In this document: positions 40,434-41,672 of the stretch, piece after piece
How positions within the stretch are numbered: the first letter of the stretch is position 1
Layout: each line of letters starts with the position of its first letter
Source: Escherichia coli
GTDB lineage: Bacteria > Pseudomonadota > Gammaproteobacteria > Enterobacterales > Enterobacteriaceae
DNA: 64,000 bases
Assembly: GCA_902500055.1 (NCBI GenBank)
Contig: GCA_902500055.1_4131.1
Direction: 5' to 3' (one strand)
The notes under the pieces: generated by a model
The model's input: only the letters and a program-made list of their open reading frames with translations
What the model was told of the DNA's origin: nothing
Database searches by the model: none
Translations under genes and position numbers: made by a program

Positions 40434-40462
40434 TTGGATATGCATAATAAATACGTTATAAT
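40434..40462 (+). promoter_or_regulatory. Plus-strand sigma-70-like promoter TTGGAT-N17-TATAAT
   Basis: ttggatatgcataataaatacgttataat read in sequence. Confidence 0.45.
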
Positions 40463-40484
40463 AATTATACCAATGGAGGGATAA

Positions 40485-41639
40485 ATGTCAAGGTCAATTG
40501 CTGCGGCTGGACGCTATAAGTTTGGTGAATGTGGTTATGTTGTTGATGGTGCAATCCTCAATGATGGAACTAGACTAAAAAATATTAGAATCTATCGCCA
40601 AAGAAGCCATAGATTATATGATTTAGTTGATCCAAGAACTAATATAATATATCGTAAAGTACAAATAACAACTAAAGATAATAAAGGTTATCTATTAAAT
40701 TACAATAAAACTAATGACCAACTATTAAGTGAAATTAATAAAAATTGTTTCTTTGTTCGTGGATATTCTGAAGAGCCACAAGAAACTGATACTGGATTTG
40801 TATATAAATTTATGCTACATAAAACAATTTTAGGTAGTTCACAAACCTTGTATCATATGTATACACCTGAATGTGGTATTATAGATCGTGATATAGATAA
40901 TATTCTCATTTCACCAGTATTTGTTGGTAATGACTCAATTAGTGGTAAATTATTCAACACTGGTTCAGAAATTGATACTAACGGTATGGTAATAACAATC
41001 GTATTACCAGACGGGACAGAATACTTTACTACCCAATTTGTTAATGATGCATTTACAATTCCAGTTGATGTTATCACACAATCAGGGAAAGGTACTGCTA
41101 CACTCACTTCTCCATATTATAACACTAAAGTGGTGGAATTTGATGTTCTTGAAAGTGGTGAGGATATTGATTTTGTTACATCAGTTCTTCTATCCCAATT
41201 TGAACCTGTTTCGGAAGGTGTATTTTCTGCGGTTGTTCCATTTGATGTTCATGATCGTGGACAGTACTTAGCACTTCAAGCATACAGTGGTGACTTATAT
41301 CAAGTTGGTGTAGATCTTTCTGTAGACGCAGAAGGTAATATTACTGTGTATCAAACTGACAATTTACCTGTTTCTTTGAGTATAATCGGAAAAACACTGC
41401 ATACTACTCCTTTCCATAAAGAATATACTTTAAGTGAGTGGGTTCTCGGTGAAGACTCTATGTACTCTATCTCAGTTCCAGTAACTGAACATGGTAAAGC
41501 ACTACCACAAGTTCAATTATATTCTTCAGACAATCATGTAGTTCATAGTGAAATACAAGTGGATGAAGATGATAATGTAATTCTTAAAGTAGTAGAACCG
41601 CTTGACTGCTCAGTCGTAATAGTTGGTTACAACGCATAA
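40485..41639 (+). CDS. Hypothetical protein (384 aa); lone plus-strand gene in minus-strand block
   Basis: ORF with GGAGGG SD; own promoter and downstream terminator. Confidence 0.6.
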   Translation: MSRSIAAAGRYKFGECGYVVDGAILNDGTRLKNIRIYRQRSHRLYDLVDPRTNIIYRKVQITTKDNKGYLLNYNKTNDQLLSEINKNCFFVRGYSEEPQETDTGFVYKFMLHKTILGSSQTLYHMYTPECGIIDRDIDNILISPVFVGNDSISGKLFNTGSEIDTNGMVITIVLPDGTEYFTTQFVNDAFTIPVDVITQSGKGTATLTSPYYNTKVVEFDVLESGEDIDFVTSVLLSQFEPVSEGVFSAVVPFDVHDRGQYLALQAYSGDLYQVGVDLSVDAEGNITVYQTDNLPVSLSIIGKTLHTTPFHKEYTLSEWVLGEDSMYSISVPVTEHGKALPQVQLYSSDNHVVHSEIQVDEDDNVILKVVEPLDCSVVIVGYNA

Positions 41640-41640
41640 T

Positions 41641-41672
41641 AAAAAAGCCACTACATTGTAGTGGCTTTAATT
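41641..41672. terminator. Bidirectional terminator (agccactacattgtagtggct flanked by A- and T-runs)
   Basis: Perfect inverted repeat between convergent genes. Confidence 0.6.

What the first reader, a model, noticed from the sequence alone, without database searches (positions are those of the whole stretch)
40434..41672. Isolated plus-strand gene with its own promoter and a bidirectional terminator inside a 50 kb minus-strand block
The gene 40485..41639 (384 aa) is the only convincing plus-strand gene between 11.5 and 64 kb. It has a TTGGAT-N17-TATAAT promoter, a strong SD, and a perfect hairpin terminator shared with the convergent gene 41681..42493. Its N-terminal SIAAAGRYKFGE is unlike its neighbours. 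The arrangement suggests a moron-like insertion or an independently regulated function.
Basis: seen in the sequence. Interest (0 to 1): 0.45.

Follow-up and report, generated by a model that had tools for sequence, protein, structure and literature searches.

The report
Conserved late virion-protein gene, reverse-oriented
The lone plus-strand gene is a known, mass-spectrometry-confirmed virion protein of 121Q/PBECO4-type jumbo coliphages, with an anchor domain and three Ig-like domains; it has sat in this reversed position, with a late-type promoter and two-way terminator, throughout the phage group, so it is ordinary and not a recent insertion.

Summary
40485..41639(+) is a real 384-aa gene and the only family-supported plus-strand gene between 11.5 and 64 kb. 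It has a strong SD and an 11-bp hairpin terminator that works on both strands.

The window is an Asteriusvirus (121Q/PBECO4-like jumbo coliphage). The protein is 100% identical to 121Q gp155 ('virion structural protein, Ig-domain') and 99.5% identical to phAPEC6 gp077, which was found in virions by MS. The CBB ortholog was also found in virions.

The 'moron' idea fails:
- All 61 matching Rak2-like phage records carry the gene.
- In 16 related loci inspected it is always the lone reversed gene beside the same left neighbour.
- Its GC content equals the window's.
- The one phage lacking it (ph0011) shows a secondary deletion.

'Independently regulated' is supported, but not through the proposed sigma-70 promoter. 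The -35 is not conserved. The invariant element is a T4-late-like TAAATA (here ATAAATA-N3-TATAAT), shared with other virion-protein genes in the window and already published for the CBB ortholog.

The protein has a conserved N-terminal module plus three Ig-like domains, an architecture like Hoc or pb10. It is probably a dispensable surface decoration or adhesin.

Verdict: ordinary and already known; low interest.

The parts
39784..40368 (-). Divergent left neighbour (121Q gp156-like, 194 aa, phrog_16175, function unknown). It is the first gene of the leftward transcription unit that starts in the intergenic region.
   Evidence: The same neighbour is present in all 16 related loci inspected.
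40396..40424 (-). P1, a sigma-70-like promoter firing leftward: TTGACT-17-TATCAT with TG extension, 10/12.
   Evidence: A (T)GTCAA box at the equivalent position is seen in the upstream regions of nearly all relatives, including A4, CBB and GAP32. The CBB equivalent is published as RpoD-like Porf_497.
40464..40491 (-). P2, a perfect sigma-70 consensus promoter firing leftward: TTGACA-16-TATAAT with TG extension, 12/12. Its -35 is formed by codons 1-3 of the plus-strand gene (A-TGTCAA-GG). Its -10 lies 1 bp from the plus-strand TATAAT.
   Evidence: It is conserved in 121Q, UE-S1, BF17 and Turkey5 but not in A4. In the GAP32/CBB group a comparable box lies upstream of the late motif instead. Function is inferred, not shown.
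40447..40462 (+). Late-type promoter motif ATAAATA-cgt-TATAAT, resembling the T4 late TATAAATA. The TAAATA core is at 40448-40453.
   Evidence: TAAATA is invariant in 16/16 orthologous upstream regions, 25-39 nt before the ATG. TAAATA-N3-TATAAT has 8 exact hits in the window against 0.15 expected; the other 7 lie in or before the RCC1-like virion-protein gene array. The CBB ortholog's ATAAATACTTTATA is published as late-type promoter Porf_496.
40434..40439 (+). It is probably not functional.
   Evidence: It is not conserved even in close relatives: TTTGAT in UE-S1, TTACCT in BF17, TTATGA in Turkey5. The other TAAATA-N3-TATAAT sites have no -35-like hexamer.
40475..40480 (+). Shine-Dalgarno sequence GGAGGG.
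   Evidence: A GGAG-type SD is conserved in the orthologs.
40485..41639 (+). CDS, 384 aa: virion structural protein (121Q gp155 = phAPEC6 gp077 = CBB_496; phrog_10468).
40485..40889 (+). N-terminal module (residues 1-135). It is the most conserved part and is the proposed virion-anchor domain.
40890..41636 (+). Three tandem Ig-like beta-sandwich domains (approx. residues 136-225, 226-303, 304-384).
   Evidence: AF2 pLDDT is mostly 85-96. Foldseek hits are to tandem-Ig proteins such as Bap, filamin, DIP and Sidekick, E down to 1.5e-5. There are also hits to Ig-containing surface proteins of related jumbo phages.
41644..41668 (.). Bidirectional intrinsic terminator: AAAGCCACTAC-ATT-GTAGTGGCTTT, with an A-run on the left and a T-run on the right. 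It ends both the plus-strand gene and the convergent minus-strand gene.
   Evidence: A hairpin of the same architecture with at least 7 different stem sequences occurs in the window and all 14 related loci folded (15/15). It is annotated by ARNOLD in G17 and published for CBB as Torf495/Torf496.
41681..42469 (-). Convergent neighbour (121Q gp154 = phAPEC6 gp078c, phrog_14991), also a virion protein. The likely start is the ATG at 42469, not the GTG at 42493.

Best explanation
The window comes from an Asteriusvirus, a 121Q/PBECO4/phAPEC6-type 'Rak2-like' jumbo coliphage. Gene 40485..41639 is the ortholog of 121Q gp155, phAPEC6 gp077 and CBB_496. It encodes a virion-associated protein made of a conserved ~125-135-aa N-terminal module followed by three Ig-like domains.

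It forms an ancient, monocistronic transcription unit wedged in reverse orientation between two leftward, sigma-70-driven (early-type) transcription units. On its 5' side it shares a 116-bp intergenic region with two leftward sigma-70 promoters (P1 and P2). On its 3' side a two-way hairpin terminator stops both it and the converging virion-protein gene.

Shown:
- Identity of the gene, its conservation and its fixed synteny.
- Presence of orthologs in virions by mass spectrometry.
- Conservation of the TAAATA motif and of the terminator.
- The domain architecture.
- Natural deletion of the gene in ph0011.

Inferred:
- Transcription starts at the T4-late-like ATAAATA-N3-TATAAT motif, read by phage-modified RNA polymerase late in infection.
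- The N-terminal module anchors the protein to the capsid or tail surface.
- The increasingly variable Ig-like domains project outward as a dispensable Hoc/pb10-type decoration or weak adhesin.
- Reverse orientation plus the terminator insulate the gene from early read-through.
For: Identity:
- The 3.2-kb region is 99.1-99.9% identical to 21 Asteriusvirus records.
- The protein is 100% identical to 121Q gp155, annotated 'virion structural protein; Ig-domain'.
- phrog_10468 'virion structural protein', E = 7.6e-184.

Virion presence:
- phAPEC6 gp077: 42.88 kDa, 10 unique peptides, 37.8% coverage (PMC7247149 Table 1).
- CBB_496: 4 peptides, 17.5% coverage (PMC5259590).
- fENko-Kae01 ENKO_455c is flagged as LC-MS/MS-identified.

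Ancient and syntenic:
- 61/61 matching records carry it at 80% coverage or more.
- The arrangement is identical in 16 related loci.
- GC equals the background.

Promoter:
- The TAAATA core is invariant in 16/16 orthologous upstream regions, while the -35 is not conserved.
- TAAATA-N3-TATAAT occurs 8 times against 0.15 expected. All are on the + strand, and the other 7 lie in or before the RCC1-like virion-protein gene array.
- TATAAATA and TAAATAC lie upstream of two other MS-verified virion genes in the block.
- The CBB paper lists ATAAATACTTTATA (Porf_496) among 35 late-type promoters found before structural genes.

Terminator.

Protein architecture:
- AF2 pLDDT is 80.4, with three high-confidence beta-sandwiches and tandem-Ig Foldseek hits.
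- Conservation falls along the protein: N-module 51%, Ig1 41%, Ig2 35%, Ig3 29%.
- The N-module occurs at the N-terminus of 87 protein clusters; the 10 sampled with Pfam carry Ig-like (Big_2/Big_1/Invasin) domains in 9 cases, up to 7 Big_2 stretches.
- It is confined to Rak2-like jumbo phages in the phage collection.

Dispensable: ph0011 carries a deletion remnant.

phAPEC6 and 121Q virions carry unassigned fibres at hexamer centres and on the tail.
Against: - No transcript data exist for any Rak2-like enterobacterial phage in the searched literature. Late timing and the start site are therefore inferred from motif and protein class only.
- The TATAAT hexamer is a perfect sigma-70 -10 and could support some host-RNAP transcription.
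- Three other virion-protein genes in the same block lie on the minus strand, co-oriented with early genes. Reverse orientation is therefore not required for virion genes, and the insulation rationale is weak.
- The location on the virion is unknown. Paralogs are annotated 'major tail protein', although that label probably reflects only their Big_2 domains.
- There is no sequence similarity to any solved structure, including any Hoc or pb10 entries the PDB copy may hold (the only PDB phmmer hit up to E = 1 is an uncharacterized protein at E = 0.72).
- The ph0011 deletion rests on one assembly.
Confidence: 0.8

Rival explanations
1. Moron-like insertion: a recently acquired, self-contained cassette with its own promoter and terminator that adds an accessory function.
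For: It has a self-contained promoter and terminator and the opposite orientation. One related phage, ph0011, lacks the gene.
Against: - The gene is present and syntenic in 61/61 matching records, down to 30% aa identity and across nine host genera.
- GC is 33.5% against 33.9% for the window.
- The protein is a virion component.
- ph0011 retains both gene ends and an internal fragment, so its state is a deletion.
- The phage is virulent, so there is no lysogen to benefit.
Confidence: 0.03
2. Host sigma-70 promoter as proposed (TTGGAT-N17-TATAAT): the gene is transcribed by unmodified E. coli RNA polymerase, early or constitutively.
For: The match is 10/12 with a perfect -10. TATAAT is conserved in core Asteriusvirus and CBB.
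Against: - The -35 is not conserved among close relatives. In more distant orthologs the -10 degenerates (GTACAC, GATATA, GAAATA) while TAAATA stays invariant.
- Matches of this quality occur at chance frequency.
- The seven other TAAATA-N3-TATAAT sites have no -35.
- A perfect 12/12 sigma-70 promoter on the opposite strand overlaps the site and would out-compete it for host RNAP.
- The product is a virion protein.
Confidence: 0.12
3. The gene and its regulation are as described, but the protein is a tail or whisker component, for example the base or shaft of the 'hairy' tail appendages, and not a capsid (Hoc-like) decoration.
For: - Paralogs sharing the N-module are annotated 'major tail protein', 'cell adhesion domain protein' or 'possible surface protein' in GAP32, CBB, RaK2 and Yen9-04.
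- phAPEC6 and CBB have hair-like appendages on the tail with unassigned gene products.
Against: - The 'major tail protein' labels most likely derive from Big_2 domain similarity only.
- GAP32 is not reported to have tail hairs, yet it carries the ortholog.
- phAPEC6 also has unassigned fibres at every hexamer centre.
- No data discriminate capsid from tail.
Confidence: 0.3

Closest known systems
Escherichia phage 121Q gp155 / phAPEC6 gp077 / Pectobacterium phage CBB_496 (PHROG 10468, 'virion structural protein')
   Same: Same gene. It is 100% (121Q) and 99.5% (phAPEC6) identical, and 38% identical to the CBB ortholog. Orientation, neighbours, late-type motif and bidirectional terminator are the same. 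The protein was detected in virions by MS.
   Different: Nothing material. The published papers leave the function unassigned.
T4 Hoc (highly immunogenic outer capsid protein)
   Same: Similar size (384 aa here; Hoc is about 376 aa from my own memory, not checked here). Both have three tandem Ig-like domains plus one non-Ig domain thought to bind the virion. Both are dispensable and made by a T4-related lineage using TATAAATA-type late promoters.
   Different: The domain order is reversed: the non-Ig module is N-terminal here, whereas describes the three N-terminal Hoc domains as Ig-like and the fourth as non-Ig. There is no detectable sequence similarity. Hoc was not among the top Foldseek hits. 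The binding site on the virion is unknown.
T5 pb10 decoration protein
   Same: Both have an N-terminal virion-binding domain followed by Ig-like domain(s). Binding at hexamer centres is known for pb10 (PMC5292684 abstract). phAPEC6 has unassigned hexamer-centre fibres.
T4-type late promoters (TATAAATA, gp55-dependent) and the ATAAATA 'promoter 3' of CBB/GAP32
   Same: An ATAAATA core without a conserved -35, placed 25-39 nt before the ATG of a virion-protein gene. The orthologous site is listed in the CBB late-promoter table.
   Different: In core Asteriusvirus the motif is extended by a TATAAT 3 nt downstream. The sigma factor that recognises it and the actual start site are untested.
Morons of temperate phages (e.g. 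lambda/HK97-type)
   Same: A single gene with its own promoter and terminator, oriented independently of its neighbours.
   Different: It is not patchy in distribution, not compositionally distinct, not in a temperate phage, and encodes a virion component.

Membership tests
Orthologous group of 121Q gp155 / phAPEC6 gp077 / CBB_496 (PHROG 10468) | Full-length sequence homology | tested here: met
   phrog_10468 E = 7.6e-184 over 1-383 of 384. 100% identity to 121Q gp155.
Orthologous group of 121Q gp155 / phAPEC6 gp077 / CBB_496 (PHROG 10468) | Conserved genomic position and orientation | tested here: met
   16 related loci inspected, all with the same arrangement.
Moron | Own promoter and terminator | tested here: met
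   A promoter motif and a terminator flank a single gene.
Moron | Patchy presence or absence among otherwise collinear relatives, indicating insertion | tested here: not met
   Present in 61/61 matching records. The only absence, in ph0011, is a deletion with remnants.
Moron | Base composition deviating from the surrounding genome | tested here: not met
   GC is 33.5% for the gene, 33.9% for the window and 32.9-34.1% for the flanks.
Moron | Product not part of the virion or lytic programme (host-fitness function) | tested here: not met
   Orthologs are detected in purified virions by MS.
T4-type late promoter / CBB 'promoter 3' (ATAAATA) | (T)ATAAATA-like element upstream of a virion-protein gene | tested here: met
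   ATAAATA at 40447-40453. The TAAATA core is invariant in 16/16 orthologs. The CBB ortholog is listed in Table S7.
T4-type late promoter / CBB 'promoter 3' (ATAAATA) | No conserved -35 element | tested here: met
   The region 17 nt upstream of TATAAT varies among close relatives. The other TAAATA-N3-TATAAT sites have no -35.
T4-type late promoter / CBB 'promoter 3' (ATAAATA) | Genome encodes a gp55-like late sigma factor | not tested
   It is outside this window. It is reported for CBB (CBB_244) in PMC5259590. The window itself encodes a sigma-70-family factor with regions 2-4 at 34722..35687.
T4-type late promoter / CBB 'promoter 3' (ATAAATA) | Late-time, replication-coupled initiation about 6 nt downstream of the motif | not testable with these tools
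   No transcriptome or 5'-end data were found for this phage group.
Bidirectional intrinsic (Rho-independent) terminator | GC-rich stem-loop followed by a U-tract on both strands | tested here: met
   11-bp stem with 5 GC pairs and a 3-nt loop. The tails are TTTAATTTT on + and TTTTTTATT on -.
Bidirectional intrinsic (Rho-independent) terminator | Structure conserved with changed stem sequence in relatives | tested here: met
   The window and 14 related loci (15/15) have a hairpin with the same A-run/T-run architecture and at least 7 distinct stems.
Bidirectional intrinsic (Rho-independent) terminator | Actual transcript 3' ends at the site | not testable with these tools
   Needs 3'-end mapping.
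Hoc/pb10-type Ig-like capsid decoration proteins | Tandem Ig-like beta-sandwich domains | tested here: met
   AF2 model with three sandwiches at pLDDT 85-96. Tandem-Ig Foldseek hits.
Hoc/pb10-type Ig-like capsid decoration proteins | Separate non-Ig virion-binding domain | tested here: inconclusive
   The N-module is the most conserved part and is shared as an N-terminal module by 87 protein clusters. No binding data exist and there is no significant fold match.
Hoc/pb10-type Ig-like capsid decoration proteins | Sequence homology to Hoc or pb10 | tested here: not met
   Pfam gives no hit above threshold. PDB phmmer gives no relevant hit up to E = 1. It may work like these proteins but is not a family member.
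Hoc/pb10-type Ig-like capsid decoration proteins | Present in virions and dispensable for growth | tested here: met
   MS detection of orthologs. A natural deletion exists in the isolate ph0011. Both lines of evidence are indirect for this exact phage.
Hoc/pb10-type Ig-like capsid decoration proteins | Binds the outer capsid surface (hexamer centre) | not testable with these tools
   phAPEC6 cryo-EM shows unassigned hexamer-centre fibres at 10 A. No assignment has been made.

The most novel reading that the evidence does not exclude
The ~125-aa N-terminal module of this protein may be a dedicated virion-anchor domain specific to Rak2-like jumbo phages. Each phage would use it to hang several different Ig-array proteins on its surface: none to seven or more Ig-like domains, and proteins up to 1859 aa. 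Stand-alone copies such as 121Q gp471 also exist. Under this reading, this gene family would encode the so far unassigned hexamer-centre fibres and/or 'hairs' seen on phAPEC6, 121Q and CBB virions.

A second, weaker novelty concerns the promoters. In core Asteriusvirus, a perfect leftward sigma-70 promoter uses the late gene's first codons as its -35 box, and its -10 abuts the late promoter. Early and late polymerases might therefore exclude each other at this site, giving a temporal switch.
Probability: 0.3. Interest if true: 0.5.

Novelty: already known. Interest (0 to 1): 0.18.

Why it matters
As a genome feature it matters little. The gene, its virion association, its late-type promoter, the divergent early promoter and the bidirectional terminator have all been annotated or published for orthologs in 121Q, phAPEC6 and CBB.

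The useful by-products are modest:
- The case shows that reverse orientation with a private promoter and terminator in a large virulent phage can be an ancient late-gene island, not a moron.
- The N-terminal module defines a modular anchor-plus-Ig-array family confined to Rak2-like jumbo phages. This gives concrete candidates for the unassigned capsid fibres and tail hairs of these phages, and possible display scaffolds.

Tried and rejected
- Pfam on the protein and its neighbours gave nothing above threshold.
- PDB sequence search found no relatives.
- Foldseek against PDB gave only generic tandem-Ig matches with low TM-scores, because of inter-domain flexibility.
- Foldseek against BFVD returned orthologs and paralogs from the same phage group but no functionally characterised protein.
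- A paralog search within the window found none. The paralog, 121Q gp471, lies outside the window.
- Fetching 121Q 170-220 kb to test the motif in front of the major capsid gene missed the structural module. I did not repeat it. The test against canonical late genes therefore rests on the CBB paper's table and on the virion-protein genes inside the window.
- Literature searches for transcriptomes of Rak2-like enterobacterial phages found none. fENko-Kae01 proteomics used ultrafiltered lysate and identified 220 proteins, so it is weak evidence for virion location.
- 'Not a real gene' was considered and rejected, given peptide evidence and conservation.
- 'Compositional island' was considered and rejected, given GC equal to the background.
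Full report
**1. The observation**

The ORF 40485..41639(+) is present: 384 aa with an ATG start. GGAGGG lies at 40475-40480, 4 nt upstream of the ATG (the GGAGG core is 5 nt upstream). TTGGAT (40434-39), 17 nt, TATAAT (40457-62) is there as described.

The 3' hairpin at 41644-41668 (AAAGCCACTAC-ATT-GTAGTGGCTTT) is called as a terminator on both strands. It has 11 pairs and T-rich tails in both directions. Folding energies are -15.6 kcal/mol on the plus strand and -17.6 on the minus strand.

The claim that this is the only convincing plus-strand gene from 11.5 to 64 kb holds. The four largest other plus ORFs of 80 aa or more that I tested have no PHROG family, and one overlaps a minus-strand tRNA-Gly. 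In the near-identical phage SHEFM2K, the only other plus calls in the annotated stretch (window ~8-50 kb) are 37-69-aa PHANOTATE ORFs without a family.

Two corrections are needed:
- Sigma-70-like matches of this quality are no commoner than chance in this 34% GC DNA: 53 found against 56.8 +/- 7.0 expected.
- The convergent gene most likely starts at the ATG at 42469, which has an AAGGAG SD, and not at the GTG at 42493.

**2. What the sequence is**

The 3.2-kb region is 99.1-99.9% identical to 21 Asteriusvirus genome records, including 121Q, PBECO4, phAPEC6, SP27, G17 and Sharanji. These are 'Rak2-like' jumbo coliphages of about 350 kb.

The protein is 100% identical to 121Q gp155, annotated 'virion structural protein; structural protein, Ig-domain'. 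It is 99.5% identical to phAPEC6 gp077. It matches PHROG 10468 'virion structural protein' end to end.

Mass spectrometry supports virion association:
- phAPEC6 gp077 was identified in virions by ESI-MS/MS with 10 unique peptides and 37.8% coverage. The convergent neighbour gp078c was also found, with 4 peptides (PMC7247149 Table 1).
- The CBB ortholog CBB_496 was found in virions with 4 peptides and 17.5% coverage (PMC5259590).
- fENko-Kae01 ENKO_455c is flagged as LC-MS/MS-identified. That preparation was only ultrafiltered, so the evidence is weaker.

**3. Moron or ancient resident?**

tblastn finds the gene at 80% coverage or more in all 61 matching phage records. Identities run from 100% down to 30%. 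The hosts span Escherichia, Salmonella, Klebsiella, Erwinia, Yersinia, Serratia, Pectobacterium, Cronobacter and Xanthomonas.

I inspected 16 related loci: 121Q, G17, GAP32, CBB, XaC1, UE-S1, BF17, Turkey5, A4, EJP2, Hallingskeid, fENko-Kae01, 7t3, Serratia BF, fHe-Yen9-04 and XbC2. In every one the ortholog is the single reversed gene in a block of opposite-strand genes. The ~190-aa gp156-like gene always lies to its left. The gp154-like virion protein lies to its right, either adjacent or one gene away. Gene GC (33.5%) equals window GC (33.9%).

One Asteriusvirus, ph0011, lacks the gene. Its 269-bp gap still contains the promoter region, the ATG and about 20 degenerate codons, a ~60-nt internal fragment (window 40868-40928), the last five codons and the terminator. 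This is a secondary deletion, not an empty insertion site.

The moron reading is therefore refuted. The deletion also suggests the gene is dispensable.

**4. Regulation**

I compared the orthologous upstream regions.
- The TATAAT hexamer degenerates in distant orthologs: GTACAC, GATATA, GAAATA.
- A TAAATA core just upstream is invariant in 16 of 16 regions, 25-39 nt before the ATG.

In the window the composite TAAATA-N3-TATAAT occurs 8 times exactly, against 0.15 expected, and always on the plus strand. Seven of these lie in or in front of the tandem RCC1-like genes at 0.9-9 kb, whose phAPEC6 counterparts are virion proteins called 'DNA condensation protein'. The eighth is this gene. The seven are paralogous repeats and so are not independent of each other, but the eighth is independent of them.

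Two further MS-supported virion-protein genes lie on the minus strand of the block. One has TATAAATA 37 nt upstream (23451..23444, before 23024..23407). The other has TAAATAC 66 nt upstream (21750, before 20420..21679). ATAAATAC is otherwise depleted in the window: 2 occurrences against 8.2 expected.

The CBB paper derived exactly this motif by MEME from the regions upstream of structural genes. It described the motif as ATAAATA, likened it to the T4 late promoter TATAAATA, and proposed a role in late expression. Its Table S7 lists Porf_496, ATAAATACTTTATA, at 323,194-323,207, which is the ortholog of this gene. Table S5 lists an RpoD-like promoter, Porf_497, for the divergent neighbour. Table S8 lists Torf495/Torf496 as a terminator on both strands. 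All three regulatory elements have thus already been predicted in print for the ortholog.

I conclude that the gene is independently regulated, most likely as a late gene. Timing and start site remain inferred, because I found no transcriptome for this phage group.

**5. The other strand of the intergenic region**

The 116-bp spacer also holds two leftward sigma-70-type promoters.
- P1 (40424..40396) is TTGACT-17-TATCAT with a TG extension. A counterpart exists at the same relative position in almost all relatives.
- P2 (40491..40464) is a perfect TTGACA-16-TATAAT with a TG extension.

P2's -35 is formed by codons 1-3 of the plus-strand gene (A-TGTCAA-GG). Its -10 lies 1 bp from the plus-strand TATAAT, so polymerases bound at P2 and at the plus-strand promoter would overlap. 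P2 is conserved in 121Q, UE-S1, BF17 and Turkey5 but not in A4. In the GAP32/CBB group a similar box sits upstream of the late motif instead.

The plus gene therefore fills the gap between two leftward early-type units. One ends at the shared terminator. The next starts at P1 and P2.

**6. Terminator**

The window and all 14 related loci folded (15 of 15) have a GC-rich hairpin with an A-run on the left and a T-run on the right, immediately after the stop codon. At least seven different stem sequences occur: GCCACTAC, GCCTCC, GGCTCC(T), GGCTCCC, GGCGGCC/GGCGACC, GGCACTC and GGAGCC. The structure is conserved while the sequence is not, which argues for function in both directions.

**7. The protein**

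AlphaFold2 with a 14-sequence alignment gives a mean pLDDT of 80.4.
- Residues about 18-93 form a small beta-rich domain.
- Residues 1-17 and 94-134 have low confidence.
- Three beta-sandwich domains span about 136-384, with pLDDT 85-96.

Foldseek matches tandem Ig-like proteins such as Bap, filamin and DIP/Sidekick, with E down to 1.5e-5. It also matches Ig-containing 'possible surface proteins' of related jumbo phages.

Conservation falls from the N-terminus outward. Against the six most distant orthologs, identity is 51% for the N-module, 41% for Ig1, 35% for Ig2 and 29% for Ig3. Of the 46 invariant columns, 26 lie in the first 135 residues, including two cysteines, C16 and C130.

An exhaustive profile search with the N-module found 87 cluster representatives. 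The module is always at the extreme N-terminus, and protein lengths range from 102 to 1859 aa. Nine of the ten sampled C-terminal regions carry Ig-like domains, including up to seven Big_2, Big_1, Invasin_D3 or HYDIN-type stretches. In the phage collection the module occurs only in Rak2-like jumbo phages, including RaK2 and K64-1.

121Q gp471 (125 aa, 'virion structural protein') is a stand-alone copy, 33% identical with E = 9e-16. It too is a reversed gene island, with a TATAAATA upstream and a two-way terminator.

**8. Most likely mechanism**

Combining points 2-7, the gene encodes a dispensable, late-made virion surface protein. A conserved N-terminal module anchors it to the particle. Three progressively more variable Ig-like domains project outward.

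Functionally this resembles T4 Hoc, which has three Ig-like domains plus a capsid-binding domain, sits at hexamer centres, is non-essential and has roles in adhesion and dispersal. [quoted passage not shown] It is not a sequence or fold member of either family.

phAPEC6 and 121Q capsids carry unassigned fibres at each hexamer centre. [quoted passage not shown] This gene family is a reasonable candidate for those structures. Capsid versus tail location cannot be decided here.

**9. Verdict**

The gene is independently regulated. It is not a moron, and it probably does not use the proposed sigma-70 promoter. The feature is already annotated and largely published for orthologs.

Interest is low. 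The modest new points are:
- the modular N-terminal anchor family;
- the natural deletion in ph0011;
- the overlap of a perfect early promoter with the late promoter and the start codon.

Noticed in passing
window 40464-40491 (-): A perfect sigma-70 consensus promoter (TTGACA-16-TATAAT with TG extension, 12/12) fires leftward. Its -35 box is codons 1-3 of the plus-strand gene. Its -10 lies 1 bp from the plus-strand TATAAT, forming the inverted repeat TATAAT-A-ATTATA. Early and late promoters may exclude each other here.
   Followed up: partly
window 36-11468 (+): An array of about 10 paralogous RCC1-like genes ('DNA condensation protein' / 'regulator of chromosome condensation'; virion proteins in phAPEC6). 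Five start sites are preceded by a repeated cassette: a GCCAGTACT...AGTACTGGC hairpin terminator, then TAAATAtagTATAAT, then AAAGGAGG; two further exact motif copies lie just inside ORF starts. Seven exact motif copies occur against about 0.15 expected for the whole window.
   Followed up: partly
window 23444-23451 (-) and 21745-21750 (-): TATAAATA lies 37 nt upstream of the virion-protein gene 23024..23407 (phrog_16530). TAAATAC lies 66 nt upstream of 20420..21679 (phrog_20398). These are late-type motifs in front of minus-strand virion genes embedded among early-type genes. The third such gene, 41681..42469, has none within 300 nt.
   Followed up: partly
L019 47734-48239 (-) = 121Q gp471/gp472 (record 217733-218238): gp471 (125 aa, virion structural protein) is a stand-alone paralog of the N-terminal module (33% identity, E = 9e-16). 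It is also a reversed island inside an opposite-strand block, with TATAAATA upstream and a two-way hairpin terminator. The 43-aa gp472 just upstream (MGEPIAGQDQFPFTLGGYLVDG...) looks like a truncated duplicate of the same N-terminus.
   Followed up: partly
proteins P0016-P0099: The N-terminal module heads 87 protein clusters of 102-1859 aa. Nine of ten sampled carry C-terminal Ig-like domains, up to 7 Big_2 stretches (Big_2, Big_1, Invasin_D3, HYDIN-type). Paralogs in GAP32, CBB and RaK2 are annotated 'major tail protein', probably only because of their Big_2 domains.
   Followed up: partly
L020 3170-3438 (Escherichia phage ph0011, OP557969.1): The gene is deleted in this Asteriusvirus isolate. 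What remains is the promoter, a mutated SD (GGTGGA), about 20 codons, a ~60-nt internal piece, the last 5 codons and the terminator. In Salmonella phage SD-6_S16 the gene is annotated as two ORFs (P0009, 242 aa), which suggests a frameshift or an assembly error.
   Followed up: partly
window 34722-35687 (-): A phage-encoded sigma-70-family sigma factor (Pfam regions 2, 3 and 4) lies in the same minus-strand block, 5 kb from the gene. Its promoter specificity is unknown. The CBB paper describes a TGAAACG...TATAAT promoter class in that phage group.
   Followed up: no
window 1-64000: ATAAATAC is depleted in the window: 2 occurrences against 8.2 +/- 2.7 expected. Both occurrences lie upstream of virion-protein genes (40447 on +, 21751 on -).
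   Followed up: partly
window 40530-40532 and 40872-40874 (residues C16 and C130): Two cysteines are invariant across all 14 aligned orthologs in the N-terminal module. One lies in, and the other next to, segments the structure model predicts with low confidence. They could form a disulfide or a metal site, or sit at the virion-binding interface.
   Followed up: no
window 47729-54023 (-): Five tRNA genes (Thr-tgt, Asn-gtt, Ser-gct, Arg-tct, Gly-tcc) all lie on the minus strand, interspersed with small genes of the block.
   Followed up: no
window 41681-42493 (-): The convergent virion-protein gene is listed mechanically from a GTG at 42493. An ATG at 42469 preceded by AAGGAG matches the annotation in 121Q, G17 and SHEFM2K (262 aa).
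   Followed up: yes
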